64,000 nucleotides of DNA from a virus, in the IMG/VR virus record IMGVR_UViG_3300046698_000540, positions 36,370 to 100,369 of that record. One strand, written 5' to 3'. The translations under genes were made by a program, and so were the position numbers. Shown here in pieces: positions 3,268-33,949 of this stretch. Positions within the stretch are counted from its first letter, which is position 1, and the number at the start of each line of letters is the position of its first letter. The notes below the pieces were generated by a model, which was not told the origin of the DNA, ran no database searches, and saw only the letters and a program-made list of their open reading frames with translations.

Positions 3268-6192
3268 CTACGTTGTGGTGCTCGAAGTCGTCGTGCTGGT
3301 CGTTGTCGTTTCCTCCCACGGATCCATGTATTGCGTGGCTGAAACCAGAGCTTGAAGCTGGCTAGGGTGCGGAAGCTGGTCCAACAACGAAATACTGGCG
3401 ATCTGATCGTACTTCAAATGAGGTTCGGCATTCGTGCTGTTGTACCCGCGTGTCACCGTGAGCGTTGCGGTACCATCGCCATGCCACACACAATTAGTGG
3501 CCAACACCTGTTCCGAGCCTACCTGATAAACACTTCGCGTTCCTATTCCTGTGACGTCGAAATCGTCCCAGGTGTTGTCCACCGTCCAAGCCGTCGCTGA
3601 AGCATCCACATCCGCGAGTAAAAATCCGCCGGCCGCCAGGTTGTTATCTGGAGTTCTGAAAATCTGAACCGCTTGCAGGAGTTTTTGCTTGCTCAGATCA
3701 CTATATGCCTGCCAGGAAAGGCGCACGCCCACACTGGGAAGCGAAACACAGGGATTTTGTGCCGCCCAAAGCAGAGCGGGCAATGGGGGATACACGAAAC
3801 CCTTTGATCCGCGGATGTACACATTGCGCGGAAATCTCGCCAGCTCAACGAAAGGATCCCCTGAAAGAATATCGTCGTACTCACTCGATCGCCAGGAGCG
3901 AACCTTGAAAGTCATGCCCCAATCGTCATTGAGCGCTTTTTCTTCGATCCTGATCCAATCTCCACCGTTAGGCATGAGCGTGTGGGCCAGGTACGTGATG
4001 TCGCCCACTTCCAGCTCATCCATGAGGAGAGTGCTGTCCAGCTCAACATTGCGAACTTGCGCCCATAATTGGGGACTGGTGCCACCCAATTCATGGCGCA
4101 GCATCCTGAGGCCGAGGCGCGCCGCCTGTTCCGTGAAGCAAGTTCCCACCAGGTTGTAGCTCTGCGCCATTTTGAACGGATAGCCATTCAATCCGATCAA
4201 CTTCTGGTAGTCGATCGAATAAACCGTCGCCATGTTCTGCTGGAAATCGAAGTCGTGATCGGCGAAGTTCAAATCCAGTTCATTATAGGAGGGCGTGGGA
4301 ATGTCCGGCTTCAAGCTGTTGTGCTTGACGTTGACGAACTCTTGAAAGGCCGGCCTTACTGTGGCATCCTGACATGCGCTGAATTGCCGGACCGCCAGTT
4401 TTCCATTGCGGAAAAATCGGAATCCGTGGCAATCCCTGAGCGCCGAATCGATCTGATCCATTGCCGGCGCCAGTTCACTGAACTGCCCAGCAAACTGGTA
4501 GCGCTGCACCGTGCTTCCGTCCAGGCCCGTGATATTGTCCGCGGCATAAGTCGCAAAATCTATGAAACTTTGAAGGTCTATGAACGTGGCGTGCGTTGCG
4601 ATCGACGTGTACTTGATGTTGAACGCTTCCAACACCATGTCCAGGATGATCCACACGGGATTGCCGCTTCCGCCGTAGATCCCGCCAACGCCATAAACTC
4701 TGCTGGTTGTGCTGCCGTACTGCCATACCCGGCGGCCTGCCGCCAGGTTGGCATAAACCGAAGGAGCCGAGCTGGCGCCTGTGCTTTTGCTGGCATCTGG
4801 GCTATTCACACCCGAGCTTGTGTCCTTCACCCGAGCAAAAAATCCGGCCCTGGAGGAAATATAAACCTGTGGGTCTCCTGGGGAATCTGTCTGAAGCATG
4901 TCCCCTTCGATCTGCGTCCACACATGAGGCTCGCCAATACGACCGGGGGATCTGCCTACTCCCTTATCGCAACCCGGCGCCGGCCAAGCCGGGGCGGGAA
5001 ATTCCCCGTTGGTAGGAAGCAGGCTGTTGACCTGGACATCTTGAATGGCCCCAATGTTCACATCTCCGCTGGCGGCCGGGGCATTTCCCAACACCCCTTC
5101 CCCAACGATGCACTCTACGGACACATAATCCGATTCTGGCCGCCATTCCAGAATCAAGGGCGTGCACGTGAATCCTGTAGCGGCGCCGGCATACACCAAG
5201 GGCACGGCCTGATCGAAGATCGTGGAAGTCTGAGAACTATAGGACGTGTAGGGGTCGCCGCCGCCAAGAAACCTGGTCAAAAAATTTCCGCCCAAATAGC
5301 CTGTGGCCCAAGAACAAACATACCTCTGACCACCATAGAACCGGGCCATTCCGCGGCCAAGGCAACCCGTAGCCGGCCCCACATAGCTCCAATATGTGGG
5401 CGAAGAATCCGGCTGGTGCTCGTTATTGGTCACCGAAGCTTGCCAAATTCCGCCATTCTGGTAAACTTGGCTTCCTGCCTGATACACCACGGAATGAAAC
5501 CATGAGGAAGGTCCGAACGTCTTGTCGCACGTCGTTAGATAGGGCCGGCCTTTATACCCCTCTGTGGAACTTATGTCGGGTCCGAAGTCGTCAGGTACGC
5601 TTGCCTCTCCGAGAACTCCCAATATTTCAGGGATGGCCACACGCGGCCCTGCGCCTGCGCCTGTGTACCCGAAGCCGGAATAGGGGCAGTACAGCCCGTC
5701 GTCGAACTGAAGATCGCAGTTCCTGCTGAATCGCCGCCGCGGAAGTGGCAAGGTCAAATCGAATAGACCGTCCTTACAGGAGAGCGAAAATGTCTGCTGA
5801 TCGTAGGGCGTTTTGTCTATGAAGCCGATCCACTCGATGCGCGTGGCGTCCGCGAGGGAACCTCCACCGGTCACCACGTCGGGCATGTAGACTTTGAACA
5901 CAACCACGCCGCGTTGGAACATGTGATCGCGCGCCGCCAATTCTAGAGTGCGATCGACGTTGGACAAAGTGAACGTGGCCGTGGAACTGGATCCTGTGAT
6001 ATTGGAACTGATGGGCCCCCACTTCACCAGGCGCGGCAAATAAAGATGCCCGCCAATACCCGTCAGATCGACCCGGCGATCGCTCATGTACCCTGTGGCG
6101 CCGTCCACCAGGGTTACCTCCAGCAGAGGTACAGGCTCCACCGTGCGCCCGCGGACGGCATTCCAATACGCGGTGCTGGGAAACGGGTTCAT
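3268..6192 (-). CDS. Tail tip/hub (host-specificity-type) protein with Thr/Ser C-terminal tail
   Basis: 974 aa, downstream of tape measure; Cys motifs (CDLQFDDGLYCPY, CDKT) like minor tail L/hub proteins; ends TTTTSTTTSSTTT. Confidence 0.75.
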   Translation of the reverse strand: MNPFPSTAYWNAVRGRTVEPVPLLEVTLVDGATGYMSDRRVDLTGIGGHLYLPRLVKWGPISSNITGSSSTATFTLSNVDRTLELAARDHMFQRGVVVFKVYMPDVVTGGGSLADATRIEWIGFIDKTPYDQQTFSLSCKDGLFDLTLPLPRRRFSRNCDLQFDDGLYCPYSGFGYTGAGAGPRVAIPEILGVLGEASVPDDFGPDISSTEGYKGRPYLTTCDKTFGPSSWFHSVVYQAGSQVYQNGGIWQASVTNNEHQPDSSPTYWSYVGPATGCLGRGMARFYGGQRYVCSWATGYLGGNFLTRFLGGGDPYTSYSSQTSTIFDQAVPLVYAGAATGFTCTPLILEWRPESDYVSVECIVGEGVLGNAPAASGDVNIGAIQDVQVNSLLPTNGEFPAPAWPAPGCDKGVGRSPGRIGEPHVWTQIEGDMLQTDSPGDPQVYISSRAGFFARVKDTSSGVNSPDASKSTGASSAPSVYANLAAGRRVWQYGSTTSRVYGVGGIYGGSGNPVWIILDMVLEAFNIKYTSIATHATFIDLQSFIDFATYAADNITGLDGSTVQRYQFAGQFSELAPAMDQIDSALRDCHGFRFFRNGKLAVRQFSACQDATVRPAFQEFVNVKHNSLKPDIPTPSYNELDLNFADHDFDFQQNMATVYSIDYQKLIGLNGYPFKMAQSYNLVGTCFTEQAARLGLRMLRHELGGTSPQLWAQVRNVELDSTLLMDELEVGDITYLAHTLMPNGGDWIRIEEKALNDDWGMTFKVRSWRSSEYDDILSGDPFVELARFPRNVYIRGSKGFVYPPLPALLWAAQNPCVSLPSVGVRLSWQAYSDLSKQKLLQAVQIFRTPDNNLAAGGFLLADVDASATAWTVDNTWDDFDVTGIGTRSVYQVGSEQVLATNCVWHGDGTATLTVTRGYNSTNAEPHLKYDQIASISLLDQLPHPSQLQALVSATQYMDPWEETTTTSTTTSSTTT

Positions 6193-6380
6193 TGCACGGA
6201 AACCTTCAGGTCGCAGAAATGAGGCGCACAGGACTTACAAAAATAATATCTGTGAAGCTCTTCACAGCATGGTAACTTTAGCATGTAGCATACCTCTGCA
6301 ACATTGTTGCAAGGTTGCATGTTCTCTCGGGTGTCCCCACAAGTTGCCTCGCATATTTGACCAGCAGGAACTTCCATCAT
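6189..6380 (-). CDS. Small Cys-rich hypothetical protein
   Basis: 63 aa, overlaps both neighbours by 4 bp, fills the gap in the tail operon. Confidence 0.45.
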   Translation of the reverse strand: MMEVPAGQICEATCGDTRENMQPCNNVAEVCYMLKLPCCEELHRYYFCKSCAPHFCDLKVSVQ

Positions 6381-6853
6381 CCGGGAAAACCTCCAATTTT
6401 CAACTGAGCTTTTCGCAACTTGTACTCGAATAGCTCCACGCTCATCTCATCCTCGTCGAACAACGCGACGTAGCGCCCGAGCGTGGCGTGTGAGGGGTGC
6501 GTCAACCTGGTGGTGGGATCGTCGCGGTAGGGGTTCGGATACGTGGACCAAGGAACCGGATCGTAGTACCAGAAGGAAACCGCCCGGCCCTGGTGGTCGT
6601 TGAAAAATTTCCAGAGAATGCCCGACCGGCTGGCGATGATATCCGTCAACTCCCCCTTCAGGACGTCGAAGCCTATCTCGAACGTGATGAGCGGCGATCC
6701 TCCAATCACGAAGCGCTGCTCGAGAATCGGAGAGAACTGGTGAACCTTGTTTTCCCATTTCCGGCCACGCTTGAAATTGTAGTCGGGATCGAACGGAAAA
6801 ACCCCGACAGGAGTGTATGCTGGAACGGGCTCGCCGAACAAAAAATCGCTCAT
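6377..6853 (-). CDS. Distal-tail-like protein (DUF2460-like)
   Basis: Likely start MSDFLFGE at 6853 (ATGA overlap); motif FFNDHQGRAVSFWYYDP resembles lambda gpM/DUF2460-type proteins. Confidence 0.65.
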   Translation of the reverse strand: MSDFLFGEPVPAYTPVGVFPFDPDYNFKRGRKWENKVHQFSPILEQRFVIGGSPLITFEIGFDVLKGELTDIIASRSGILWKFFNDHQGRAVSFWYYDPVPWSTYPNPYRDDPTTRLTHPSHATLGRYVALFDEDEMSVELFEYKLRKAQLKIGGFPG

Positions 6854-7338
6854 GTCGTTGTCGTGGTCGTGCTGCTCGTGGTGATGTTCTCCACATACAC
6901 AGGATACGCCGCATCGTTGTCGATCGAGTTGTCGATGTCCCCGATCGTAACCAACACCAGCTCCCCGGTGCGCAGCGTGGCGGCCGGGACGGAGTACCCT
7001 TGTGGATCCTCCTTGAACCGGACGTTGTACATCGTGTCGTCGTCCGGCGCGAAAAACTGGAAAGGGTAAGCGGACCCCTTCAGGGTGTCTATGAAGGTTT
7101 CCAAGGTGGCAATGTCGTTTGTCGTCCATCGGTCCATCTTGATCGTGAACTCGTACATCGCCACGATCTGGTTGGGCATCAGCTCAAACGCCTGGTCCTT
7201 GTATCTCTGCACCACGGTAACCCACTTCACCTTGCGGCTGAAGCTGTAGTCCATCTTGGTGAAGACCAGCTCAGGGCCCGGCGTTTGCGGGAGGAGCTGG
7301 TAGTTCGCAACCGAAGCAGTGGGAGCCGGACACATCAA
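6850..7338 (-). CDS. Minor tail protein with poly-Thr C-terminus
   Basis: Directly after tape measure; FIDTLKGSAYPFQF..YNVRF similar to the neighbouring distal-tail-like gene; ends ITTSSTTTTTT. Confidence 0.65.
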   Translation of the reverse strand: MMCPAPTASVANYQLLPQTPGPELVFTKMDYSFSRKVKWVTVVQRYKDQAFELMPNQIVAMYEFTIKMDRWTTNDIATLETFIDTLKGSAYPFQFFAPDDDTMYNVRFKEDPQGYSVPAATLRTGELVLVTIGDIDNSIDNDAAYPVYVENITTSSTTTTTT

Positions 7339-10300
7339 ATGCCTCCGTTCCCGAGTGCGCGCCCCATTGCCTGCCGATTCACGTTTTGCTGCGTGGCCGT
7401 GGTGACGGCGCCGGCGACGGCCCTGTTGTACGTGGCCGTGTTTTTCAAGAACCCGCTGGTGGTCAAAGTGTTCAAAGCGCCCGCGTCCAAAACTGTGGAA
7501 GCATCCACGGACACCACCATATTCTTTTCGTTGGCTTTCTGCAACTCCGTCAACTGCTGCCGAGCCAAGCCGATCATGACCTGGCCACTCTCGTTCTGGA
7601 CTTTTTGAGCGCCCCTCAAATTTTCCGCCAGGCGATCCGCAAGAAGAGTTGGCATGGAGCGCGCCTGGCTGTTCTGCTGCTGTGAGGACTCCAGCAAATT
7701 GGTATTGATCGAAGTAAGAATGCCCGCATACTGGACAGAATGCTGCCCTTCTGCGACCAGGTAGGTACTCAGGTTGTTGAACAACTGATTCATCTGCCCG
7801 GGTTGAAAACCCGCCTGTGTGCGCCGCGCCAATTGATCCGCCAACTGGTCGGCAAAATTCCGGTCGCCTTCGCTACGGGATGCCGCCAGCATGTTGATGT
7901 CCTTCACCATCTGGAACATCTGCGCGCCGGTTTTGTCGTAGGCCTGACCGGCGTACTGCATCACGCGGTTGTTCACCACCAGGTTGTCGTTGAGCTTGAT
8001 GATGTTGTCCTCCATGGCGGTCTTGGTAGACACGGGCGCTGGCGTTCCTACGGCCGTGCCTCTGGAGCCCGAAGCAGCTCCGCCACCTCCGCCCCCTGCT
8101 GCTCCCGATAGAACTCCTCCAGCAAAGCCGGCTGCCGCTGCCGCAGCGGTCCACAAAGCAGCTGCTCTATACTCCCCAGCAGCTGCTGCCGCGGTAAGAG
8201 GACTGGAAGCGTCGGCAAGCCCTGCCATGAGATGTATTCCCGCCTGCTTCAAGCAGTATTTAGAGAGCGCCTGTAACACCTCCGCGCCCATGTTCTCCAC
8301 GAACTGCGCCATGGCCTTCCCAACATTTCCGCCCGAGCCAACAGCCTTGCCTAAAGCATTGGTCGCCTGTACCGCGAGATCCATACCGGCCTTGTAGGCG
8401 CCCATCGTGGTAAGAGTGCCCTCAAACAGGTGGTTCAAGGCCTCCGCCGTCGTTTCCAATGGCTGCGTGAGATCCCGGACGGCGCCGGCATACTTTTGCC
8501 ACGTGATCGTGCCTTCCTCAAGCTTCTTGTTCAGCTCCTCAATCTGGCTCTGAACGGGAGCCAACCGAGCCGTCAGATCCTCCATGATTCCCGAAACTGC
8601 TTTCGTCGAAGCGCCATACTCCTGCGCTGTTTTTGCGGCATCCAACTGCGCTTGCCCTTTTACATCTCCGCCGACCAACCGCTGAGCTTGTGCCTGCTGC
8701 TTCGTGATCTCGGCGAGTTCTTTCTGATAGTCTAGCCACTTCTTGACCTGATCCGCGGTGAGCGTGGTATTTTTCAAGAGGTCCAGGGCTTGCACGCTCG
8801 AATCCCGTCCGGCCTTGTTCCGGGCGGCTTCTTCCGCGGTTAATTTCCCCTGAGCCACCGAAGTTTGTTCCAGAATGTCCAACTCCCGATTCCGCATCGT
8901 GAGGAGAGCGGTTTCGGTGGTGAATTGCAAATCGGCAATCTGCCGCTGCGCCGCGAGCCTCAGTTCATCCTGGCGTGCTTGAATTTCCTTATCGGCCGCC
9001 TCAACGGAGCCTGTCTGCTTGATGAGCGCGAGTCTGAGAGCCGCATCCTTTCCCAGGGCTTGCGCTTGTGCTTCCGCCAGGGAGGTAATGGCCCTCTTTT
9101 GCTGATCTACGTTTTCGAGCTGCTTCGAAGCGTTCGTATTTTGAACCTCAATCAGGTGCAGCTCCCGATTGAAACGGGCTTCATCCAAGGATGCTAGTTC
9201 TGTTGCGCGTTGCACTCGGGCCTGGAAGACGGCTGTGTCGGCCTCTTCCATTTTTTGCGCGACCTGCGCTTCCATCAGAACTTTATCGGCCGTGGTGTTG
9301 CGAATCAAGTCGATTTCGTTCTGATACCTCCTCCGGATCGCCTCTTCTTCCTGATCGTACGTTTGCCCGGTGCGCTCCGCGATCGAAGTCTGCGTAGCGA
9401 GTAAAATTTCCTGAACCTGCAAAACTGAGTCGAGGAGGGCTCGTGCATGTTCTATTGCTGCCACTTGCGCCTGCGAAGCTGCCGTGGTCAAGACCGTTTT
9501 GGCGGCCCAGGCATCCTGCATAATCACGATGGCAGTTTGCAGATCCGCGATCTTCCCCTCGTTTTTGTAGATCGTCTCTATGTCCGCGGCCGTCTTGCTG
9601 CGAGCGCCCAGCAGAGCGTTTTCCGCTTGCAACCCTTGGATGTCGTTGTTGATCTCGCGTACCTGGTTTTCGACGATCTTCTGATGCGTCGAAAGTCTCA
9701 TCTCCTGCAAAGACTGAAGGGCTTGCTGTACCCCCTCGACGACATTCTGATAGATCAAAGCGTTTTCGCCGGCCTTGGCCAAACTCGTGGCAATTTTTTC
9801 GACCTGCTGGGCCAGCAGAGCGGAAGTTTCCTGTGCAGATTGTGTTTTGGCCCCTAAAGCGGCAGTGAACTCAACAGCTTGCTGTGCAAAATCTTTCTGA
9901 TCCTGGTGGGCGCGAGCGACCATAGTCTCTGTCAGATTGAGTTCTTTCCGTCTCTGGATAACATTGGTAAGGTTTCGGTCCAAATCGGCATAAACCGTCG
10001 TGACTGCCTGTGCCGCCTGCAATGCGGCCGTCTTATCCACGTCCGTGACTTTTATGTGCGCGCGCATCAGCGCTTCGTTGGTGGAGATCGCCGACGACAG
10101 GCGCCCCAAAGCTCCTATGGTCACATTCAAATCGACGGGAACTAGCTGCACGCCACTGGCCGAGTGCTTCAAGCCTTCGATCTCCTTCTCCAAAGAAGCC
10201 ACGCCGGCCTTCAAGTTCTCTATCTGTTTGGTGGACTTTTCCGCCTCATCCCCGTAGCTGCTAAAAAGTCCTCTGCTAACCGTAGGATGCGCAAGAGGAG

Positions 10301-11900: not shown

Positions 11901-12279
11901 CCTCCTTCTTGATGGGGAAAGTAATCGAGTGCACCAGGTTCACCTTGTCGAGCACGTCGGTGTGCTGTTCCTTGGGCACATCCATGCTCTCCATTACCTG
12001 GTAAATCGCGCTGATGTTGATGCCAAGGACGGTTCCCAGACCTGCGACGATTACTTGATTCCAGCACCTGGCGTAGACTTCCCATGCCACGATATTTCCG
12101 GGCATCAGTTCCACGGCCGGGCAGTCTGCGCAGCGCTGGAACTTCGCGCTTTCCACCGCTTGGGTTTCGCCCACGGCTATGAGCTGGCTCCTGCACTGCT
12201 CGAAGATCTCCTGGCAGATTGCGCACGTTTTTGCGTATCCGCCCTGCTTCTGCCAGCGGGCGAACGCGGTCAGTTTCCC
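11860..12279 (-). CDS. Tail assembly chaperone, -1 frameshift extension (gpT-like)
   Basis: Open -1 frame (GKLTAFARW...NIVAWEVYARCWNQV...) entered at the slippery heptamer; no good start of its own. Confidence 0.75.
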   Translation of the reverse strand, partial: GKLTAFARWQKQGGYAKTCAICQEIFEQCRSQLIAVGETQAVESAKFQRCADCPAVELMPGNIVAWEVYARCWNQVIVAGLGTVLGINISAIYQVMESMDVPKEQHTDVLDKVNLVHSITFPIKKEDDGGANDPNPSAW

Positions 12280-12731
12280 AGTTCGGCGGCCTTTTTCTGC
12301 TCGTTGAAGGTATCGACCTTCTGCGTCACCGAGGCGAGCCACTGGTCGAATTCCAGGCTGTGCTCGATGAGCATTTCCTTGTTCTCGTCCGTGCAGGGAA
12401 CTTCCAAATCGCCGGCCAGGGAAGAATCCAACTTCAGAATCACCATGCTGCGCAGGACATCGATGGTGAGCCCCTTCCACTCCTGAATGACCTTGCGGGC
12501 ATAGAGCTTCCGGAACTTCAACTTGTCCATCTCCTCCTCTTCCCGGAGGGTCCGCATGTTCAGCTTCGTGGTCTTGGCGGCCTCGAACATTTTCTGCATC
12601 TGCTGCTTGCCGTAGTAGGTGACTCGCAACCAGAACGGCGTATTTTGATACTGAACCCACACGCCTTCGTTTTCGGGGCGCGCGGTGTCAATGAGATCGG
12701 CTAATCGTACAGCTTGCTGTTGATCGTTCAC
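12270..12731 (-). CDS. Tail assembly chaperone (gpG-like)
   Basis: 153 aa between tail tube and tape measure; ends at G GGA AAC TGA. Confidence 0.8.
   Translation of the reverse strand: MNDQQQAVRLADLIDTARPENEGVWVQYQNTPFWLRVTYYGKQQMQKMFEAAKTTKLNMRTLREEEEMDKLKFRKLYARKVIQEWKGLTIDVLRSMVILKLDSSLAGDLEVPCTDENKEMLIEHSLEFDQWLASVTQKVDTFNEQKKAAELGN
12273..12279 (-). other. Programmed -1 frameshift slippery site GGGAAAC
   Basis: X XXY YYZ heptamer in correct phase immediately before the chaperone stop codon. Confidence 0.8.
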
Positions 12732-24605: not shown

Positions 24606-25544
24606 TCAGATGACCGGGCCATGGTAGCTTCGCCTGCGAACCGACGACGCTACTTCTTGCTGAGGTTCCTCGACCAGCGGCCCATCTTCAACGTAGGGGC
24701 CCACCAGAGCCATCAGGATCTGGGTATTCACATTGCCCAACCCCAACAGCTCGAACAGCTTGCCGTAGTTGATCTGCCACGGCTCATTCTCCGGAACAGG
24801 ACCGCCAACAACAACGGCTTCCGGATAGCGCTCGTAAACTTCTTGCGCGAGAAGACCCACGTATACTTTCTTTTCGAGGTCGGCCTTGAAATAGAACGCG
24901 TACACGTTCAAGCCGAACACCTGTGCGATCTTGGACAGGATCTCCTTCAACCGGGCATCCGAGGTCGTGGTAGTCGTAGTGGTTGAAGTCGTAGTGGTCG
25001 AAGTCGTAGTGGTCGTGCTGGTCGAAGTGGTGCTGGAACTGGTCGTGCTCGTCAACCCGGTGAACGTGTTGACGAAAACCGCCAGCCAACTGCCGCCGCG
25101 GACATAGTTGTCAACCAGCTTTTTCGCCAGCCATTGGGAAATGTCCGGCGAAGGAATCATCGCGTATGCTCTTTCCACGATGTCCCTTTGGCGCACGATG
25201 CACGTGTAGGTGACACCGCCGATGGTCCCCGTGATCTGCACCCGGTCGTAGCCTGCCACCAGGGAGTAGCACGTCGCCTTGTTGCCAAATGTCACCGCAA
25301 CCTGCGTCGTCGAACGCGGGTGTGTGATGTTGACCGTTCGGCTTGCCACGAGATTGTTGATGAGCTGGTCCATGCGGGCCCAGTCATCCAAGAACGCTTG
25401 CGCCACGCTGGTACCCGTCAGTTCCGTGGGGTTGAAAGGCTTGGTCCATTCCATCAGATGCGAATTGCCGTCAACCGTACCCGACAAGAGCCAGGAGCCT
25501 TCGGCATCGAAAGGAACAGCCGCTGTAATAATCACTGTAGACAT
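24606..25544 (-). CDS. Virion fibre-like protein with poly-Thr tract and C-terminal self-cleaving chaperone (peptidase S74-like)
   Basis: Start MSTVIIT after GAGGAGG; ~30-aa T/S tract then SDARLK...GLLAQEV...PEAV...INYGKL. Confidence 0.75.
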   Translation of the reverse strand: MSTVIITAAVPFDAEGSWLLSGTVDGNSHLMEWTKPFNPTELTGTSVAQAFLDDWARMDQLINNLVASRTVNITHPRSTTQVAVTFGNKATCYSLVAGYDRVQITGTIGGVTYTCIVRQRDIVERAYAMIPSPDISQWLAKKLVDNYVRGGSWLAVFVNTFTGLTSTTSSSTTSTSTTTTTSTTTTSTTTTTTTSDARLKEILSKIAQVFGLNVYAFYFKADLEKKVYVGLLAQEVYERYPEAVVVGGPVPENEPWQINYGKLFELLGLGNVNTQILMALVGPYVEDGPLVEEPQQEVASSVRRRSYHGPVI

Positions 25545-26796: not shown

Positions 26797-27092
26797 ATGG
26801 ACCTCCCGTAGCCGGCGTGCCCGCCCGGCAACGCGGCATGGCCCAGAATGTTGAAGTCTTGACCGGACCGCTCTAAACTGGATTTGGCGCCTGTTCTGGC
26901 AAACTTCAACTGGGAATGCGTTTGCCTGTGCGGGCCGAACCGCGGTTCTGCGCCGGCCTTTTTCGCCTTAGCACTCCAGTTCTTTCCGTGGTGTGCCTTC
27001 AGCATTTTCTTGTGCTCTGGGGTGGCTCGACCTTGTGCATGAGCCTCTTCCGCTTCCGTTAAAAAATCCGCTGTTCTGGACATGGCCCTCAC
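26793..27092 (-). CDS. Basic protein with conserved C-terminal tag (copy 4)
   Basis: Ends RSGQDFNILGHAALPGGHAGYGRSM. Confidence 0.75.
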   Translation of the reverse strand: MRAMSRTADFLTEAEEAHAQGRATPEHKKMLKAHHGKNWSAKAKKAGAEPRFGPHRQTHSQLKFARTGAKSSLERSGQDFNILGHAALPGGHAGYGRSM

Positions 27093-28909
27093 AATCTATG
27101 AAACGGCATTTCACGATCCGACGCAAGTCCTCGCTGGTGGCGGCCCTTGCCGGGATTCAGGAAGAAGTTGTCGTGCTCCTCGATCTCCCTGTTCTCATCG
27201 GCAACAAAGTCGCACGCCAAACAGCCAAGCATCAAGCTGGAACAGAAGTCCTTATAGGAGGTCTCGTCCCCGGCCTCCACGGCCAAATAAGCGCCACGGT
27301 AGACCTTTTGCAGATTCGTCATCTGCGAGACGAAATTGCGCTGCTTCTGGCCCTTTCGGGCTCGTTCGCTGTTGGGGTATTCGAATCGTTCGTTCTGCAG
27401 GTCCGCTAGAAGGCGTGAGTAACCGTCGTGGTTGGTCGATTGGTCCGCAATGAACCGTATCAGCTCCAGCTCGTTCGCGGCAATTTGCGCCTGGAAATAA
27501 TTCTCCAGCATATCCGCCATTGCCTCGCCGACGCCCGTGGCGTCGATCATGATCCGCTTCAATCCCCGGTAGTTGACCAAGAAGTCCCGGATCTGGCTGA
27601 ACTGCGCGACATAATCGTCGCCAGTGATCTGCAGCCAGTTCAAAACCCGCTTGTGGCACCGGAAGTCTCCTTCGCCTACATAACCACCTTTAGTGTAGTC
27701 CGGTTGCACCACCGTTACAACCGTGGAGCTTTCCGCCTTCCCAACGTCGATTCCCACATAAATCACGTTCACCGGATCGTAGGTCACCGGCGAATAATTT
27801 TTCCCCATCAGGTCGAACAGAGTGGGCTCGACGAACATGCCCCTTTCGAGAATCCAGTGGAGGCGGTACGACAGCCTGAACTCGTCGGAGTCGTACCCCA
27901 ACTCGGCCATCTTTTTCTGGATGTGAATTCGATACCACTGGTTCGCTCTCGCGGCCACTTCAAAGTCGTACTGGAAATGCAGCTTGAGGGTCTGATCTTG
28001 CTGCTTGACGTCCTCCCGAACATTCTGCTGGCACTTGTCGTAGAAGGCGGACCTGGTCATATTGCAGGTCCCGATCTGTACGAAGCTGGCGGCCGTGGAG
28101 GCTGCCATGGGCACGATCGACTTGCGCCACACGTACGCGTTGATGTCCTGCGCCTCTTCTCCAATAATCAGGTGCCAGCTTGCGCCTTCGATCTTGGCCT
28201 GGAGGGCGGAGGAATGGCATTTGGCATACGACCCATTGGGCAATTCCGCTCTGGCGGAATCTTTTTTGTCGTCCATCTCGATCCCTATTTCGTCATCCGC
28301 CAGCACTTCATGGGCGTGCTCCGAATGCAGGTAGTGCAGGATCTTGTCGAACAACAGGCCTGACTGCTCGTGGGATGGGGCGTAAATTCCGACCCAAAAG
28401 CCATTCTTGAATTTCTGAATGCGGGGATCCGCGAACACGGGCGGCGAATTTTCCTTATCCGGATTCGTAGTGATCTGCGCCAGCAGGGGAAGCATTACCA
28501 TCATGCCGTCCACGATGACGGCCACCACAGTGGATTTCCCAGACTGGCGCGAAAACAGACCCGTGACATCTTCCGAATCCGACCGCAGCACCGAAAGAAT
28601 CACGCGCTGCCCAAATTCCCGCTGGTACGCGTGAAGCTGGATGTCAGCCATCATTTCGCTGAACGCCAGAATCGCTTTAGCCAGCTTCCGGAGCTGAACC
28701 TTGGACAGGTGCTTGATCTGCTGCTGGCGCAAGTCCTCGCCGGCAAGCGCATCTCTTACCTGGCCGGAAAGTTTTTCCTCGGAACGAAGGCCCGGCTTTT
28801 CATCGGTAACTACCGTACGGGCCTCCAGGGGTGAGCGTGTAAGCGATACGTCCAGCACACGTGCGGAAAATAGCCGAACACCACGCCGGCGTCCAACAAG
28901 GAAAGCCAC
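27089..28909 (-). CDS. terL: Terminase large subunit (start uncertain)
   Basis: Walker A SRQSGKS, Walker B IIGEEAQD, nuclease VGIDVGK and IDATGVG. Confidence 0.92.
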   Translation of the reverse strand: MAFLVGRRRGVRLFSARVLDVSLTRSPLEARTVVTDEKPGLRSEEKLSGQVRDALAGEDLRQQQIKHLSKVQLRKLAKAILAFSEMMADIQLHAYQREFGQRVILSVLRSDSEDVTGLFSRQSGKSTVVAVIVDGMMVMLPLLAQITTNPDKENSPPVFADPRIQKFKNGFWVGIYAPSHEQSGLLFDKILHYLHSEHAHEVLADDEIGIEMDDKKDSARAELPNGSYAKCHSSALQAKIEGASWHLIIGEEAQDINAYVWRKSIVPMAASTAASFVQIGTCNMTRSAFYDKCQQNVREDVKQQDQTLKLHFQYDFEVAARANQWYRIHIQKKMAELGYDSDEFRLSYRLHWILERGMFVEPTLFDLMGKNYSPVTYDPVNVIYVGIDVGKAESSTVVTVVQPDYTKGGYVGEGDFRCHKRVLNWLQITGDDYVAQFSQIRDFLVNYRGLKRIMIDATGVGEAMADMLENYFQAQIAANELELIRFIADQSTNHDGYSRLLADLQNERFEYPNSERARKGQKQRNFVSQMTNLQKVYRGAYLAVEAGDETSYKDFCSSLMLGCLACDFVADENREIEEHDNFFLNPGKGRHQRGLASDREMPFHRL

Positions 28910-29355
28910 AAGTTCCAGTCTTCGTACGGCGCTGTGATCTTGAAGCCGCCCACCTGATCGAAGATGGCCCTTCGCATCAGAACGGTGACCGGGATATAAT
29001 TGGCGCCGCGGAGCCTATCCGGATCGAACCGGGAAATAGGCGGCCGCCAAGGGGCGCCTGGAGGATACCTGCAAGGAGCATATACCAAATCGGTTTTCTG
29101 CTCCTGCGCCGCCTTTACCATCCACTCGACAAACTGGTCGTCCAGCAGGTCGTCGTCATCCAGGAACACCAGCCACTCCGCGTCGGATCCTTGCACCAGA
29201 TCGTTGCGAATGAATCCGGGCCCGCGGCCTCGCGTATCTACGCCCACCAGGTGGCCTACATCAAGGTAGGTTTGGCGATGGACAGAGGCAACAGCTTCTG
29301 TCAGCAATTCCGCCCGCTCTGGAATCGTTGGCGTGATTACATCGACTTGTGGCAT
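28810..29355 (-). CDS. Glycosyltransferase family 2
   Basis: VITPT, FLDDDD, VGGF, YEDWNLW. Confidence 0.85.
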   Translation of the reverse strand: MPQVDVITPTIPERAELLTEAVASVHRQTYLDVGHLVGVDTRGRGPGFIRNDLVQGSDAEWLVFLDDDDLLDDQFVEWMVKAAQEQKTDLVYAPCRYPPGAPWRPPISRFDPDRLRGANYIPVTVLMRRAIFDQVGGFKITAPYEDWNLWLSLLDAGVVFGYFPHVCWTYRLHAHPWRPVR

Positions 29356-29638: not shown

Positions 29639-30301
29639 TCACTCCTTTGGAAATCCCGCCGCTTTCCTGCGATTGAATAATTCCTGACCCTGCTTCCAGG
29701 ATTCCGGCGTGTTTCCGCTCGCGTAAACCTCGTCCCACTCGCCGCCATCCTGGTGCGGATGACAGTGGTGAAAATGCAAATGCCTCGCGTCTATAACGAT
29801 ACCATCCTGGCGCGCGTGTTCCGTGAACTCGTTGTCCACCCACAAGGCCTGGTATGCTGGATTTGCAATGTAGCCCAACTTCTCATAGCGGCGCCGCGAG
29901 AGAATGTAGAGGACCATCAGCCGGCGGTCATCCGCAAGGAAACCCGACGAAACCTCCACCACAAACTCCGCGTTCAGGTCGGGAATGATCTTCAGCAACT
30001 CCTCGTCCCAATTCTGAGGCGGCCGCATGTCATCGGAGTTGGCAATAAGCACCCGGCCTTGGGAGATCACCGCGGCTTCATTCCAGCCGGCGATGGCTCG
30101 TTTCTCGCCTGTGCACCAGTGAACTTTTGATAGAGCGTTCAAGAAGGGAGGCCTGCTTGGATCGAATCCCCATCGGGAATCCGCGGCCATGAGGTACTCC
30201 ACCCGGTCGGGATTTTTGCAGGAGTCCCACCAGGCCGTGTAGCTATCCTTCCACTTTCGAGGGCGCGCTGTAGCGTGGCAGATCGAAAAAATTGGCGTCA
30301 T
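29639..30301 (-). CDS. Glycosyltransferase, GT-A
   Basis: GWNEAA..GRVLIANSDDM, WVDNEFT, HFHHCHP. Confidence 0.75.
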   Translation of the reverse strand: MTPIFSICHATARPRKWKDSYTAWWDSCKNPDRVEYLMAADSRWGFDPSRPPFLNALSKVHWCTGEKRAIAGWNEAAVISQGRVLIANSDDMRPPQNWDEELLKIIPDLNAEFVVEVSSGFLADDRRLMVLYILSRRRYEKLGYIANPAYQALWVDNEFTEHARQDGIVIDARHLHFHHCHPHQDGGEWDEVYASGNTPESWKQGQELFNRRKAAGFPKE

Positions 30302-30304: not shown

Positions 30305-30994
30305 TCACCTCTCGATCGACAGGATTGTTTCTTCAGTCTTTGGGATACCGTCCACGATCCACGCGGGCGGCCGAGTGAGCTTCATCCCCAGGCGCCAGGC
30401 CAGCACGGACAGTACGGTCTGATCGTGCCTGTGGCCCAGCACACGGGGATCTTGCGATGCTTGGTGCGCTTCATTAGTCCAGGGCCCTTGAAACGCCGTC
30501 TTCTCCTCAGCCAGCAGCAGAAATTCGTTCAGCAAAGCCCGAGCGCGCAAGTCTTTGAGGTTCAACCCGAAGGCCGTTCCTATTACTTGCGGGATTTTGA
30601 ATGCTGTTTCCCGATCGATCTTGAGGGGGGCCAAAGCAGAATCGCACGTCCAAGGCCCGCAAGTCCAGCAGGGAAGATCCTGCCGGCCGAACGGCAAATT
30701 TTCGCTGAACCAATACCCCTGCGACTCGATCCGGTCCCACAGAGGTTCTAATGAACGCACCGGCAGAATCGAAGCGTCTACCCAAAGCAGAGTATCACAG
30801 CCTATCCACAGGGCGTGCTTCAGAGCATGTGCCTTGAAAGCGTAGGGCACATCCTTGTGCGAAGGCGCGCCCGGCGGAAGACACCCCCGCCAGTGGGAAA
30901 TTCTTTTCTCTCCCAACTCCCGTGCGGCTTTTTGCATACGATCCTGCATGGCCAAATATCGGCCGCCCGTCGCCACGTTCACCAAAGCTCTCAC
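30305..30994 (-). CDS. Putative nucleotide-sugar transferase
   Basis: PYAFK, LLWVDAS, HRHDQTVLS motifs; GTG start overlapping upstream stop. Confidence 0.65.
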   Translation of the reverse strand: MRALVNVATGGRYLAMQDRMQKAARELGEKRISHWRGCLPPGAPSHKDVPYAFKAHALKHALWIGCDTLLWVDASILPVRSLEPLWDRIESQGYWFSENLPFGRQDLPCWTCGPWTCDSALAPLKIDRETAFKIPQVIGTAFGLNLKDLRARALLNEFLLLAEEKTAFQGPWTNEAHQASQDPRVLGHRHDQTVLSVLAWRLGMKLTRPPAWIVDGIPKTEETILSIER

Positions 30995-31623
30995 AAGACC
31001 CTCCAATACACGGGGCAATTTTCCAGCTTCATCAAATAAGGCATGACCGCTTCCCTTGCACCATCCAGCGTGAAATCGTCACAGATACACCATCCGCCGC
31101 GGCTGATCTTGGAATAAAGCCCCTCCAAGCATTCCTTGGTGGATTCGTACAAATCCCCATCCAACCTGAGAAGGGCAATTTTTCCCATGAGCGATCCAGG
31201 GATCGTCTCGCAAAACCATCCTTCGTGATACACCAGGACATCGGGGTCAACACCCCACCGCTCCATGTTCAACTCAACATTTCTGCGGGAGCATACGGAA
31301 ATTCCCGAACTGGTGACCTCCGCCTTGCCTGGCTCGCCGTAAGGTCTATGGACGGGATCATCGTTGTGCCATCTGCGATCCTTGGGGCCAGCCATAGGGA
31401 TTCCCTGGAAAGAATCGAACAAATGAACTTTTCGGCCGCGCGCTCCTGTGTCGTAGATGGCTTTGGCCATTGCGGCCGGGTGCGCGCCGGCATAGACCCC
31501 GCACTCCACCAGGTCGCCGGGAATACCTTCCACGATCAGGGCCTTGGCGATCTGGTATGTGGCCCCAACTGCCTCCGGCGCCGTAATCGCCTGCAACGCC
31601 AGTTCATCCAAGGATGCTTGCAT
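30991..31623 (-). CDS. TylF/MycF-family sugar O-methyltransferase
   Basis: GDLVECGVYAG, LFDSFQG, GWFCET, LLRLDGDLYESTK, DDF. Confidence 0.9.
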   Translation of the reverse strand: MQASLDELALQAITAPEAVGATYQIAKALIVEGIPGDLVECGVYAGAHPAAMAKAIYDTGARGRKVHLFDSFQGIPMAGPKDRRWHNDDPVHRPYGEPGKAEVTSSGISVCSRRNVELNMERWGVDPDVLVYHEGWFCETIPGSLMGKIALLRLDGDLYESTKECLEGLYSKISRGGWCICDDFTLDGAREAVMPYLMKLENCPVYWRVL

Positions 31624-31624: not shown

Positions 31625-32308
31625 TCAACCTCCGTGCAACTTTTTGGCGTACCTCTCGCGGTTTTCCGCAAAAAAGCGATCCCGCTCTGGATGACTCGAA
31701 GCACCACCCCAATGCGACACCCATGTTCCCCGCCATCCCGCGATCCTGTGGCCTTTTTCCTCGAGTCGGCGCCACAAGTCTGTGTCCTCCCAATAGCACA
31801 TCTCAAAATCTTCGTCGTAGCCGTTCACCTGGCGCATCGCCGCCGTGCGCGCCACGTAGAACGCTCCGAACCGCCAATTTGTGCCCATCAGGTCTTGACT
31901 TTTGCCCATGCCGTAGTGCATGCAGTTCTCAAAGTGCTCTGGCATTCCAACGGCCAAGTTGTGAATCTGCATGACCTGGATAAGCATGTAAACGGAGTCT
32001 TCAACCAGCTCCGCGTCGGTGTTCATCTGGCAAAAATATTCGCCACGGGCGAGCTTCAAACCAATGTTGCAGGCTGGACCAAAGCCTATGTTTTCGGGAA
32101 GAAAAACTGTCTTCCAATCCCGTACTGATTCTTTTATAAGGTTTCCCGGTAGGGCTGCACAGGGGGAGTTGTTGTCAATCAAGAGCAGCTCATAAGGGAC
32201 TTGCACATAGTTGGCGATGGAAGCAATCGCCCTGCGGCACAGCAGCCGTGCATTCTCGTCCTTGTTCCAGATGGGCACGACTATGGTGACTTGCGGTGGT
32301 TCTCTCAT
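31625..32308 (-). CDS. Glycosyltransferase family 2
   Basis: IVVPIWN, IDNNS, NIGFGPACNIG, GYDEDF..YWEDTDL. Confidence 0.88.
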   Translation of the reverse strand: MREPPQVTIVVPIWNKDENARLLCRRAIASIANYVQVPYELLLIDNNSPCAALPGNLIKESVRDWKTVFLPENIGFGPACNIGLKLARGEYFCQMNTDAELVEDSVYMLIQVMQIHNLAVGMPEHFENCMHYGMGKSQDLMGTNWRFGAFYVARTAAMRQVNGYDEDFEMCYWEDTDLWRRLEEKGHRIAGWRGTWVSHWGGASSHPERDRFFAENRERYAKKLHGG

Positions 32309-32679: not shown

Positions 32680-32709
32680 TTGCCAACGTAGCGCTATTAG
32701 CACTATACT
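32680..32709 (+). promoter_or_regulatory. Sigma70-like promoter for the plus-strand cassette
   Basis: TTGCCA-18 bp-TATACT; palindrome TAGCGCTA in the spacer. Confidence 0.6.
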
Positions 32710-32715
32710 CGAAGC

Positions 32716-32892
32716 GTGCCAGACAAGCAACCCACCAGCTTCCGTCTGACGGAAAACGCCCTGACACTGCTGGCCGCCCTTGCCAAGCGTGAGGGCATAG
32801 ATAAGACAGATGTTCTTGAAATCTTGATCCGTGAGCGTGCCCGCGGTTTGGGCATACCTGAACCCGAGGAGCCTTCCAGTGCAACACCCTGA
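32716..32892 (+). CDS. Ribbon-helix-helix (CopG-like) regulator, 58 aa
   Basis: Below track cutoff; hand translation MPDKQPTSFRLTENALTLLAALAKREGIDKTDVLEILIRERARGLG... Confidence 0.7.
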   Translation: MPDKQPTSFRLTENALTLLAALAKREGIDKTDVLEILIRERARGLGIPEPEEPSSATP

Positions 32893-33949
32893 CGTCCACC
32901 AGCCTTGGTCCGCCTGGAGCGAATCTCAAACGCTCCACGTGGCTGCCGCCTATTCCAATCCGTTCCGCTGGAGAACCCGGCGCGAACTTTCCAACGACTT
33001 CCGCCGACATATGGAACAATCCCCAAACGTCCAACTGCATTTCGGCGAGCTGGCTTATGGCGCCCGGCCCCACGAGGTAACTGACGCTGAAAATCCTCTG
33101 GACGTACAGTTGCGAACACAGGCGGAACTGTTCCACAAGGAAAACATCCTGAACAGGGTCATTTCCCGATTTCCCTCGAACTGGCAATATGGCGCTTACG
33201 TGGATGCCGACTTTCATTTCACCAGGCACGATTGGGCGCTCGAAGCCATTCACCAGCTTCAGCACTACGATTTCGTGCAACTGTTTTCTTCCTACGCCGA
33301 TTTGTCTGGGGATACTTATGGGACCGGACAACTACCAACAAGGGTGAACCCCAGCTTCGCTTTCAACTACATTCAGAACGGTTACAGGCTCCCGGAAGGA
33401 TATGCCAACGGAGGCTGGAGGAAGCAAGGCGTCTCTGTCAATCCCTATTATGGCGCTGCAATTGGTAAAGGCGGCCGGCGCGGTGTGGGCGCCACAGGCG
33501 GTGCCTGGGCCTTCAGACGGTCCGCTTTTGAAACGGTCGGGGGCCTGCTGGACAAATGCATCCTGGGCCATGGGGATTGGTTCATGACTTTTGGACTGGT
33601 CGGGGAAGAAGCCCCGGACATGCATATTGACGGCTATTCAGCCGACTACCGCAACACCATTTTGGCCTGGCAAAAAGAAGCGGCTAAACTCCGCAAAAAC
33701 ATAGGCTACTTGGATTGCTTTGCGCTCCACAATTTCCATGGATCCAAAATGCGCCGCGCTTATGCCAACCGCGACACCATTTTGGTCAAGCATCAATTCG
33801 CCCCAACGACGGATCTGAAACCCGACTGGCAAGGCATCTACCAGTTGAGCGGCGACAAGCCGGCGCTTCGCGATGCCGTCCGGATGTATTTCATTTCCCG
33901 AAACGAAGACGATCCCAACCTCTACGGTAAAGAGCAACCCCTGGTCTGA
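32879..33949 (+). CDS. Putative GT-A glycosyltransferase
   Basis: HKENILN, YVDADFHF (DxD), GGAWAFRR; GAGGAG RBS before GTG at 32879. Confidence 0.6.
   Translation: MQHPDVHQPWSAWSESQTLHVAAAYSNPFRWRTRRELSNDFRRHMEQSPNVQLHFGELAYGARPHEVTDAENPLDVQLRTQAELFHKENILNRVISRFPSNWQYGAYVDADFHFTRHDWALEAIHQLQHYDFVQLFSSYADLSGDTYGTGQLPTRVNPSFAFNYIQNGYRLPEGYANGGWRKQGVSVNPYYGAAIGKGGRRGVGATGGAWAFRRSAFETVGGLLDKCILGHGDWFMTFGLVGEEAPDMHIDGYSADYRNTILAWQKEAAKLRKNIGYLDCFALHNFHGSKMRRAYANRDTILVKHQFAPTTDLKPDWQGIYQLSGDKPALRDAVRMYFISRNEDDPNLYGKEQPLV

What the first reader, a model, noticed from the sequence alone, without database searches (positions are those of the whole stretch)
3268..33949. Thr/Ser-rich C-termini on tail proteins plus about six glycosyltransferases: candidate virion glycan coat
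Seen: tail tip (TTTTSTTTSSTTT), minor tail 6850..7338 (TTSSTTTTTT) and tail tube (SSTVTSSTTTVSHS) end in hydroxy-amino-acid runs; the late region holds a GT4, three GT2/GT-A, two further GT-like genes and a TylF-type sugar O-methyltransferase. Established: some mycobacteriophages glycosylate capsid or tail-tube proteins with their own glycosyltransferases. Inference: mucin-like acceptor tails for an O-linked, methylated glycan. DNA or host-surface glycosylation are alternatives.
Basis: partly seen in the sequence, partly recalled or inferred. Interest (0 to 1): 0.8.

Follow-up and report, generated by a model that had tools for sequence, protein, structure and literature searches.

The report
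Probable sugar coat on phage tail
An uncultured peat-soil phage ends four of its tail and fibre proteins in threonine/serine-rich tags and encodes, among its particle genes, soluble sugar-adding and sugar-methylating enzymes that travel with such tags in many other phages; it therefore very probably sugar-coats its own tail, which has been shown by experiment only for mycobacteriophages.

Summary
Of 929 ORFs in the 100-kb genome, the three most Ser/Thr-rich C-termini belong to the tail tube, a Dit-like protein and the tail-tip protein (about 1e-4 such termini expected by chance). The runs use mixed codons. A fourth run sits just before the self-cleaving chaperone domain of a fibre-like protein beside the GT4 gene.

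Enzymes: one GT4, two GT2, one PHROG-level GT and a TylF methyltransferase are supported. Two further "GT-like" genes are only leads. All look soluble and lie in the late operon.

The reading is supported but not proven.
- The TylF and one GT2 fall in the same PHROG families as the proven Che8/Corndog genes.
- A close relative swaps TylF for an FkbM methyltransferase.
- The GT4 family occurs in 30 viral-contig lineages, and 27 of 37 loci carry Thr-rich tracts against 5 of 80 control loci.
- A second phage group has a similar enzyme mix (GT4, GT2s, methyltransferases) after Thr-tailed tail genes.

Caveats: in relatives the same tracts are internal linkers. No counterpart of the essential Che8 GT25 or of a mucin-type GT was found. 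No sugar has been measured.

The scan has already noted this tag-plus-GT pairing on other phage DNA. Verdict: new variant of a known kind.

The parts
12865..14181 (-). Major tail tube protein (T5 pb6 type, 438 aa) with a disordered 15-17-residue Ser/Thr C-terminal tail (residues 424-438)
   Evidence: Model pTM 0.81, with the tail at pLDDT below 50. Foldseek matches the T5, DT57C and P74-26 tubes, E down to 4.5e-16. The tail is conserved in composition in P0001-P0007, L003 and L004.
6850..7335 (-). Dit-like minor tail protein (161 aa) ending in TTSSTTTTTT
   Evidence: It lies directly after the tape measure. Weak DUF2460 and phrog_2913 hits. The L004 homolog keeps the tail; the L003 homolog uses the run as a linker to an extra domain of about 220 aa.
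6377..6853 (-). Second DUF2460-like paralog (158 aa). It has no Ser/Thr run here, but its L004 homolog has an N-terminal one.
3268..6192 (-). Tail tip / hub-type protein (974 aa) ending in TTTTSTTTSSTTT
   Evidence: phrog_2048 tail protein at the N-terminus. Family members hit Phage-tail_3 and the hub N-terminal domain. The homolog C-termini are a tail, a vestige or a linker. The fold model failed.
24606..25487 (-). Fibre-like protein (293 aa). It has a 33-residue Ser/Thr run (143-176) followed by SDARLKE and a Peptidase_S74 self-cleaving chaperone domain, so the mature C-terminus would be the run.
   Evidence: PF13884, E = 3e-6. Tail-fibre PHROGs. Sequence. The run is conserved and longer in L007 and L008.
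23298..24536 (-). GT4-family (GT-B, retaining-type) glycosyltransferase, adjacent to the fibre-like gene and the portal
   Evidence: PF00534 above cut-off. E310 and E318 are invariant, eight residues apart. The profile hits BshA and GlgM. The family is linked to Thr/Ser tracts in other viral contigs.
28810..29355 (-). GT2 glycosyltransferase (181 aa) of the Che8 gp108 GT-domain type
   Evidence: PF00535. phrog_14775, E = 5e-18, and phrog_8858, the same families as the Che8 gp108 N-domain.
29639..30301 (-). Probable glycosyltransferase (220 aa)
   Evidence: phrog_14945 glycosyltransferase, E = 6.7e-13. No Pfam, NCBIfam or PDB match. Conserved at 41% identity in L007.
30305..30994 (-). Unassigned 229-aa protein in the GT cluster; GT-like only as a lead
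   Evidence: No Pfam, PHROG, NCBIfam or PDB hit. The atlas's nearest cluster carries DUF1647 on 19% of its members. It is lost together with TylF in L007.
30991..31623 (-). TylF-type sugar O-methyltransferase (the ORF may start as far up as 31806)
   Evidence: PF05711, E = 2.5e-38, and PF13578. phrog_6608, the same family as the Che8 gp108 C-domain and Corndog gp35.
31625..32278 (-). GT2 glycosyltransferase (217-227 aa), first gene of the cluster
   Evidence: PF00535, E = 3.7e-11, with weak Glyco_transf_7C. 67% identical in L007. Only generic GT2 relatives.
32879..33949 (+). Divergently transcribed 356-aa protein; possibly a further GT-A, as a lead only
   Evidence: No Pfam or PHROG hit. The atlas's nearest clusters are viral 'glycosyltransferase family protein', with Glyco_transf_7C leads. 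No match to the GT27-like profile A4.
27089..28858 (-). Large terminase (context: the GT cluster lies directly upstream of it in the late operon)
   Evidence: phrog_2, E = 8.9e-15.
21298..22872 (-). Portal protein (context)
   Evidence: PF05133, E = 1.8e-21.
19295..20236 (-). Major capsid protein (context). It ends ...NILPIVSA, with no Ser/Thr tag.
   Evidence: phrog_1357, E = 2e-50, and PF25209.

Best explanation
This is a phage-encoded system that O-glycosylates the virion, and here it is aimed at the tail.

Late in infection the phage makes its structural proteins together with a set of soluble cytoplasmic enzymes. These are one GT4, two GT2, one further GT, perhaps two more, and a TylF-type sugar O-methyltransferase. 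Using the host's nucleotide-sugars, the enzymes attach short, partly O-methylated glycans to the hydroxyl groups of disordered Thr/Ser tracts. The tracts hang off the outer face of the tail tube, the Dit-like protein and the tail-tip protein, and off the fibre-like protein once its chaperone domain has cut itself away. The outcome would be a mucin-like glycan brush along the tail.

Shown here: the tracts, their disorder in the tube model, their clade-specific conservation, the enzyme families, their place in the late operon, and their comparative link to Thr/Ser tracts.

Inferred: that sugars are attached at all, which enzyme starts the chain (I favour the GT4 family, without proof), what the sugars are, and what the coat does (shielding, protease resistance, or reduced sticking in peat or host slime).
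For: 1. The tags are real and far above chance, they use mixed codons, and all four lie in virion-module proteins.
2. The tube tail is a disordered addition after the pb6-type fold. It is kept at 65-80% S/T in seven homologs of 64-78% identity and is absent in homologs of 52% identity or less.
3. The enzymes lack membrane segments and sit between or beside terminase, portal and the fibre gene in the late operon. The genome has no other GT2 or GT4 match and no nucleotide-sugar synthesis genes.
4. Che8 gp108 is a GT2 plus TylF/Methyltransf_24 fusion, and Corndog gp35 is a TylF-type enzyme next to its GTs between portal and protease. This phage's TylF hits phrog_6608 and its GT2 at 28810..29355 hits phrog_14775 and phrog_8858, the same families as those proven genes.
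5. The close relative L007 keeps GT4 (78%), both GT2s and the phrog_14945 GT, but replaces TylF plus the 229-aa gene with an FkbM methyltransferase (PF05050, E = 2.6e-18). The methylation step is therefore conserved by replacement.
6. The GT4 family was found in 39 viral-contig loci (30 clusters at 70% identity), and 37 of them share only this gene with the phage by BLAST.
   - Thr-dominated runs occur in 27 of 37 GT4 loci against 5 of 80 arbitrary viral loci (Fisher p = 1.6e-13).
   - In 8 clusters the tagged ORF ends within about 120 nt of the GT4.
   - Two of three re-examined negative records have such tracts elsewhere on the contig.
7. In the large second group the GT4 follows Thr-tailed tail genes. 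It is followed in turn by GT2, a GT-B, two methyltransferases and a GT2 family whose best solved relatives are polypeptide GalNAc-transferases.
8. Contig-length fingerprints place a GT4 homolog on the 39,985-bp contig that also encodes a tagged tube. Another lies on the 115,669-bp contig that encodes a tip protein with a 48-aa Thr/Ser linker.
Against: - No glycan has been observed; every line of evidence is genomic.
- The same tracts act as interdomain linkers (L003 Dit-like; P0021 and P0022 tip) or N-terminal runs (L004) in relatives. They could therefore be plain flexible spacers.
- Three tip homologs keep only '...DTSS'.
- No counterpart of the GT25 enzyme that is essential in Che8 and Corndog (phrog_854) was found, and no GT27-like enzyme.
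- The GT4 profile matches only generic retaining GT4 enzymes that act on small molecules or glucans.
- About 27 of the GT4 loci belong to one broader phage group, so the association rests on fewer independent lineages than the 30 clusters suggest.
- The control loci were not matched for GC content or for tail-gene content.
- One 80%-complete GT4-bearing record (G005) has no tract.
Confidence: 0.7

Rival explanations
1. The Thr/Ser tracts are unglycosylated flexible spacers or hydrophilic brushes, left over from or serving as interdomain linkers. The GT/methyltransferase cluster acts on something else, such as the host envelope or exopolysaccharide.
For: In relatives the tracts are linkers to extra domains or sit at N-termini. 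The GT4 and GT2 profile matches are to polysaccharide or small-molecule enzymes.
Against: - It does not explain why the GT4 family sits right after Thr-tailed ORFs in many contigs.
- There are no membrane segments, and the profile scans of these proteins returned no polyprenyl-phosphate initiating transferase, flippase or polymerase family.
- Late-operon expression comes too late to remodel the host surface usefully.
- Linkers and acceptors are not exclusive: from general knowledge, Ser/Thr linkers of secreted glycoside hydrolases are themselves O-glycosylated.
Confidence: 0.15
2. The GTs modify phage DNA, for example by adding sugars to a hypermodified base alongside the 7-deazaguanine cluster at 50-57 kb. 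The tails are unrelated to them.
For: Phage GTs are classically DNA-modifying enzymes (cited in PMC12619734).
Against: - The GTs lie in the structural operon, about 20 kb from the base-modification genes.
- A TylF/FkbM-type sugar O-methyltransferase and a GT2 of the Che8 gp108 type fit the proven protein-glycosylation cassettes.
- The link between the GT4 family and Thr tracts has no explanation under this reading.
Confidence: 0.05
3. The tracts are glycosylated, but by host enzymes. The phage GTs only extend or cap that glycan, or serve another target.
For: No recognisable initiating peptide GT of a known type (GT25 of Che8, or GT27-like) was found in this phage.
Against: - Phage particles assemble in the cytoplasm, whereas general bacterial O-glycosylation systems act at or beyond the membrane (established knowledge).
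- The GT4 family travels with the tracts across contigs of very different GC content (mean 45% in the other loci against about 57% here), so presumably across different hosts.
Confidence: 0.07

Closest known systems
Mycobacteriophage virion glycosylation (Che8 gp108-110, Corndog gp35-38, Myrna; Freeman et al. 2023, Cell Host Microbe 31:1216, known here only through citing papers PMC12363180 and PMC12619734)
   Same: - Phage-encoded soluble GTs and a TylF/Methyltransf_24-type methyltransferase.
- The GT2 and the methyltransferase fall in the same PHROG families (phrog_14775, phrog_8858, phrog_6608).
- The genes are embedded in the structural operon, as in Corndog.
- The tail tube C-terminus is a target.
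   Different: - No counterpart of the essential GT25 (phrog_854); a GT4 is present instead.
- The acceptors are 10-33-residue mucin-like Thr/Ser tracts rather than the short ...GS or ...DS ends of Che8 and Corndog.
- The capsid is untagged, and the targets are tube, Dit-like, tip and fibre proteins.
- The phage is an uncultured peat phage with a pb6-type tube, with no similarity to mycobacteriophages beyond the shared enzyme families.
Poly-threonine-tag plus glycosyltransferase islands in other uncultured phages
   Same: - The same GT4 family (25-38% identity).
- GT2s and sugar methyltransferases.
- Thr/Ser tails on tail proteins, with a GTA-like tail-tip module nearby.
   Different: - Those islands sit after the tail genes and include a GT27-like (ppGalNAc-T-like) GT2 family that this phage lacks.
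- Here the genes are split: a cluster upstream of terminase, and the GT4 beside the portal.
- The tags here are shorter and richer in Ser.
Serine-rich-repeat adhesin glycosylation in Gram-positive bacteria (GtfA/GtfB GT4 initiator plus GT-A extenders); from my own knowledge
   Same: Cytoplasmic O-glycosylation of long Ser/Thr-rich tracts, started by a GT4 enzyme and extended by several GT-A enzymes.
   Different: The GT4 profile did not retrieve GtfA among solved structures at E <= 0.01. There is no GtfB-like partner and no accessory Sec system. This is an analogy only.
Chlorovirus PBCV-1 capsid glycosylation (multidomain A064R: two GT domains plus a methyltransferase); from my own knowledge
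   Same: Virus-encoded cytoplasmic GTs and a sugar O-methyltransferase that decorate virion proteins independently of host machinery.
   Different: It is a eukaryotic virus with N-linked glycans on the capsid protein, has no Thr/Ser tracts, and I tested no homology.

Membership tests
Che8/Corndog-type virion glycosylation cassette | Phage-encoded GT2 of the gp108 N-domain type | tested here: met
   28810..29355 hits phrog_14775 (E = 5e-18) and phrog_8858, as does Che8 gp108.
Che8/Corndog-type virion glycosylation cassette | TylF/Methyltransf_24-type O-methyltransferase in the cassette | tested here: met
   PF05711, E = 2.5e-38. phrog_6608, shared with the Che8 gp108 C-domain and Corndog gp35.
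Che8/Corndog-type virion glycosylation cassette | GT25-type enzyme (Che8 gp110 / Corndog gp38, phrog_854), reported as essential (PMC12363180) | tested here: not met
   BLASTP of gp110 against all called proteins gave nothing below E = 0.5. No protein of the cluster hits phrog_854 or PF01755.
Che8/Corndog-type virion glycosylation cassette | Acceptor at the C-terminus of the capsid and tail tube subunits | tested here: inconclusive
   The tube has a C-terminal tail ending ...VSHS. The capsid protein ends ...IVSA without a tag. Che8 and Corndog acceptors end ...TGS...DGS...VGS and ...GDS.
Che8/Corndog-type virion glycosylation cassette | Glycans demonstrated on virion proteins | not testable with these tools
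   This needs mass spectrometry or glycostaining.
CAZy GT4-like retaining GT-B glycosyltransferase | Glycos_transf_1 domain above the Pfam cut-off, with the two conserved glutamates eight residues apart (E-x7-E) | tested here: met
   PF00534 scores 34.6-34.8 bits against a cut-off of 26.4. E310 and E318 are invariant in 37 homologs. The profile hits BshA and GlgM.
T5 pb6-type tail tube protein | Duplicated tube fold matching solved pb6-type tubes, in the slot upstream of the chaperone and tape measure | tested here: met
   Foldseek gives 7qg9_A E = 4.5e-16 (TM 0.58), plus 9iny, 8hqz and 8ed0. The chaperone is phrog_313. Some homologs carry PF18906.
Peptidase_S74 intramolecular chaperone (self-cleaving fibre C-domain) | S74 domain above cut-off, starting at a Ser-Asp junction | tested here: met
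   PF13884 scores 27.9 bits against a cut-off of 22. The sequence reads ...TTTTTTT-SDARLKE. The cleavage itself is not testable here.
Mucin-type (GT27-like, ppGalNAc-T-like) phage glycosyltransferase | Homology to the GT2 family of the second phage group, whose best solved relatives are polypeptide GalNAc-transferases | tested here: not met
   A4 against the PDB gives 2d7i at E = 7e-9. This phage's candidates against A4 give only generic GT-A similarity (probability 55-59%) or none (below 2%).
SRRP GtfA-type initiating GT4 | Specific sequence relationship to GtfA | tested here: not met
   The GT4 family profile retrieved no GtfA chain at E <= 0.01. NCBIfam gave no equivalog.

The most novel reading that the evidence does not exclude
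This phage GT4 family would be a dedicated cytoplasmic enzyme that puts the first sugar on poly-Thr/Ser tracts of virion proteins. That would make it a new, GT4-based way of starting mucin-like protein O-glycosylation, separate from the Che8 GT25 route and from the GT27-like route. It would be spread across many environmental phages and able to turn any exposed Thr/Ser tail or linker into a glycan brush.
Probability: 0.35. Interest if true: 0.8.

Novelty: new variant of a known kind. Interest (0 to 1): 0.62.

Why it matters
Virion glycosylation has been shown by experiment only in mycobacteriophages, where it shields particles from antibodies. If this system works as inferred:
- Self-glycosylation extends to an unrelated peat-soil phage.
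- It uses mucin-like multi-site tags rather than a short terminal motif.
- It can be aimed at the tail alone.
- It involves a GT4 family that is widespread in viral metagenomes.

It would also supply simple sequence markers (a Thr/Ser tract plus this GT4) for predicting glycosylated virions. Small tag-and-enzyme pairs of this kind could be tested in E. coli as a tool for protein glycosylation.

Tried and rejected
- Megablast of the structural region and tblastn of the tube against the phage collection found nothing.
- The tube query, as a single protein and as an alignment, found nothing in viral contigs or genome contigs.
The 39,985-bp and 115,669-bp contigs could not be fetched, so I used contig-length fingerprints instead.
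- The single metagenome scan gave only four short loci.
- The nearest cultured phages by portal similarity (the GiJojo/BRock group) are myoviruses with no annotated GTs in the region fetched, so they tell us little as an outgroup.
- phmmer of the GT4, the 220-aa protein and the 229-aa protein against PDB sequences gave nothing meaningful. NCBIfam gave no equivalog.
- The six-frame TylF family search did not ring in any control genome, so I disregarded it. I checked for absence of TylF in L007 by BLAST and ORF reading instead.
- The tip-protein fold failed (mean pLDDT 31), and its profile against the PDB gave nothing significant.
- The idea that the GT4 is GtfA-like was not supported.
- The idea that one GT-A here is ppGalNAc-T-like was rejected.
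- Iterative HMM searches of the cluster proteins against all fetched loci found only the close relatives.
- The alignment A2 was too diverse for locus finding, so I used A3.
- The primary paper of Freeman et al. 2023 is not held.
- A literature search for phage, poly-threonine and glycosyltransferase together returned no papers.

Full report
**Setting**

The window is the right-hand 64 kb of a single 100,369-bp viral contig. CheckV estimates the contig as 80% complete, and earlier notes describe it as an uncultured peat phage.

I called genes with a codon-usage score trained on the long ORFs. On the minus strand the late operon runs in this order:
- A GT cluster: GT2 31625..32278, TylF 30991..31623, a 229-aa gene 30305..30994, a 220-aa gene 29639..30301 and GT2 28810..29355.
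- Large terminase 27089..28858.
- A fibre-like gene 24606..25487.
- GT4 23298..24536.
- Portal 21298..22872 and capsid 19295..20236.
- Tail tube 12865..14181 and chaperone 12270..12731.
- Tape measure 7335..11900.
- Two DUF2460-like genes, 6850..7335 and 6377..6853.
- The 974-aa tail-tip protein 3268..6192.

**The observation**

- Among 929 stop-to-stop ORFs of at least 60 aa in the genome, they hold the three highest Ser/Thr counts in the last 12 residues: 12, 10 and 9.
- From the proteome's Ser+Thr content of 12.1%, about 1e-4 such termini are expected among 116 proteins.
- The runs are written with mixed codons, so they reflect selection on the protein and not DNA slippage.
- A scan of all 116 called proteins for Ser/Thr runs at any position finds only one more. 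It covers residues 143-178 of the fibre-like protein next to the GT4 gene.
- That run ends directly at SDARLKE, the start of a Peptidase_S74 self-cleaving chaperone domain. After cleavage the mature protein would also end in a Thr/Ser tail.

So there are four tagged proteins, and all four belong to the virion module.

**What the tagged proteins are**

- *Tube.* The 438-aa protein folds confidently (pTM 0.81). Its best structural matches are the pb6-type tail tubes of T5, DT57C and P74-26 (E = 4.5e-16). Residues 424-438, which are exactly the tail, have pLDDT below 50.
- *Dit-like protein.* The 161-aa protein and its 158-aa neighbour both have weak DUF2460 matches and follow the tape measure.
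- *Tip protein.* The 974-aa protein has a tail-protein PHROG match at its N-terminus. Family members hit Phage-tail_3 and the baseplate-hub N-terminal domain. Its own fold model failed.

**How the tracts behave in relatives**

Fifteen tube homologs show that the fold ends at ...DDExAxxF.
- Homologs of 64-78% identity add a 12-20-residue tail that is 65-80% Ser/Thr.
- Two homologs have a Pro/Ala/Ser-rich tail.
- Homologs of 52% identity or less stop at the end of the fold.

The Dit-like tail is conserved in L004. In L003 the same run (22 residues) links to an extra domain of about 220 aa. In L004 both Dit-like paralogs also begin with Thr/Ser runs.

In tip homologs the run after the conserved ...YxDP varies:
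- It is a terminal tail in this phage and in P0020.
- It is reduced to ...DTSS in P0017-P0019.
- It is a 45-48-residue linker to a small extra domain in P0021 and P0022.

The tracts are therefore a recurring feature of exposed positions in these tail proteins. They are not strictly C-terminal tags.

**The enzymes**

- Pfam supports one GT4, two GT2 and a strong TylF match (E = 2.5e-38).
- PHROGs adds a glycosyltransferase family for the 220-aa protein.
- The 229-aa protein and the divergently transcribed 356-aa protein have only language-model leads.
- Six-frame searches find no other GT2 or GT4 match in the genome, and no nucleotidyl-transferase or epimerase. The enzymes would therefore use host nucleotide-sugars.
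- None has a hydrophobic segment strong enough for a membrane span.

**Comparison with the proven system**

I could read the primary paper only through papers that cite it. They report glycans at the C-termini of capsid and tail tube subunits, phage-encoded GTs, and Che8 gp110 and Corndog gp38 as essential.

From the records themselves:
- Che8 gp108 is a GT2 plus TylF/Methyltransf_24 fusion, gp109 is a GT2 and gp110 is a GT25.
- Corndog has a TylF-type gene, an unassigned GT, a GT2-like gene and a GT25 between portal and protease.
- This phage's TylF and its GT2 at 28810..29355 fall in the same PHROG families as those genes. Nothing here matches the GT25 family.
- The Che8 and Corndog acceptors end in ...TGS...DGS...VGS and ...GDS, not in long runs.

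**Comparative support**

- *Close relative.* L007/L012 (portal 84% identical, capsid 94%) keeps GT4, both GT2s, the 220-aa GT and the tagged fibre gene. It replaces TylF plus the 229-aa gene with an FkbM-family methyltransferase.
- *GT4 homologs.* The GT4 has 56 homologs, nearly all from metagenomes. Contig-length fingerprints place a GT4 on the 39,985-bp contig that encodes a tagged tube. Another lies on the 115,669-bp contig that encodes an untagged tube and a tip protein with a 48-aa tract.
- *Viral-contig loci.* A profile of the family retrieved 39 viral-contig loci, of which 37 share only this gene with the phage by BLAST.
- *Association with tracts.* Thr-dominated runs occur in 27 of those 37 loci and in 5 of 80 loci drawn with an arbitrary 14-mer (Fisher p = 1.6e-13).
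- *After collapsing to lineages.* At 70% identity there are 30 clusters. Of these, 22 have a same-strand tagged ORF, and in 8 that ORF ends within about 120 nt of the GT4.
- *Negatives re-read.* Of three negative records read in full, two have such tracts elsewhere on the contig and one does not.
- *Identity of tagged ORFs.* Where PHROGs can name them, they are tail proteins.
- *Second phage group.* About 27 loci form one broader group. There the GT4 follows GTA-like tail-tip genes and Thr-tailed ORFs. It is followed by GT2, a GT-B, two methyltransferases and a GT2 family whose best solved relatives are polypeptide GalNAc-transferases.
- *What this phage lacks.* It has no recognisable member of that last family.

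**Limits**

- All the evidence is genomic.
- The association rests on fewer independent lineages than there are clusters.
- The control was not matched for GC content or for tail-gene content.
- The initiating enzyme is unknown. The GT4 profile resembles only generic retaining GT4 enzymes.

**Verdict**

The reading as a virion glycosylation system is the best supported one, at about 0.7. It is a new variant of the mycobacteriophage system:
- It uses mucin-like multi-site tracts.
- It targets the tail only.
- It has a GT4 family in place of the GT25.

This scan has already described similar tag-plus-GT islands on other phage DNA. The case is therefore not unique within the scan, although I found no paper that describes it.

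Noticed in passing
window 15369-15731, 16798-17184, 22882-23301, 26793-27092 (all -); also genome 3190-3435 (36,935-37,180 bases before the window start): At least five small proteins of the head and tail modules end in a shared C-terminal tag, SGQDFNILGHAxLPGGHAGYG. The tag is also present in relatives L005 and L007. It could be a targeting or packaging signal. It is the subject of another finding (e1-6029284).
   Followed up: partly
L007:886-1560 (+), in place of window 30305-31623: In a close relative, the TylF methyltransferase and the adjacent 229-aa gene are replaced by a single FkbM-family methyltransferase (PF05050, E = 2.6e-18). This suggests that the 229-aa protein works together with TylF.
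   Followed up: yes
L003:11160-12422; P0021, P0022: In relatives, the Thr/Ser runs that are terminal here act as linkers to extra C-terminal domains: about 220 aa on the Dit-like protein and 70-80 aa on the tip protein. None of those domains has a Pfam match. They may be exchangeable binding modules.
   Followed up: partly
window 6377-7335 (-): Two tandem paralogs, each matching only the N-terminal part of DUF2460 (the GTA g12 / Dit-like family), follow the tape measure. This may be a split or duplicated distal tail protein.
   Followed up: no
window 29424-29627 (-): A 67-aa protein inside the GT cluster ends in a long Glu/Asp run (...EEEDDEEEDDEEE). It is conserved in L007. Its function is unknown.
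   Followed up: no
L011:13556-14119 (+): The close relative carries an extra ORF just upstream of its first GT2, with a twin-arginine-like N-terminus (..TRRSILKAS..). This phage has no counterpart.
   Followed up: no
window 3268-6192 (protein P0016): An identical copy of the tip protein is recorded on six contigs, the longest of 186,879 bp. This record is 100 kb and 80% complete. The true genome may be larger, or that contig may be a concatemer.
   Followed up: no
window 11860-12660 (-): A 266-aa ORF overlaps the tail assembly chaperone gene and the start of the tape measure in another frame. It may be the frameshifted chaperone product that is usual in siphophages.
   Followed up: no
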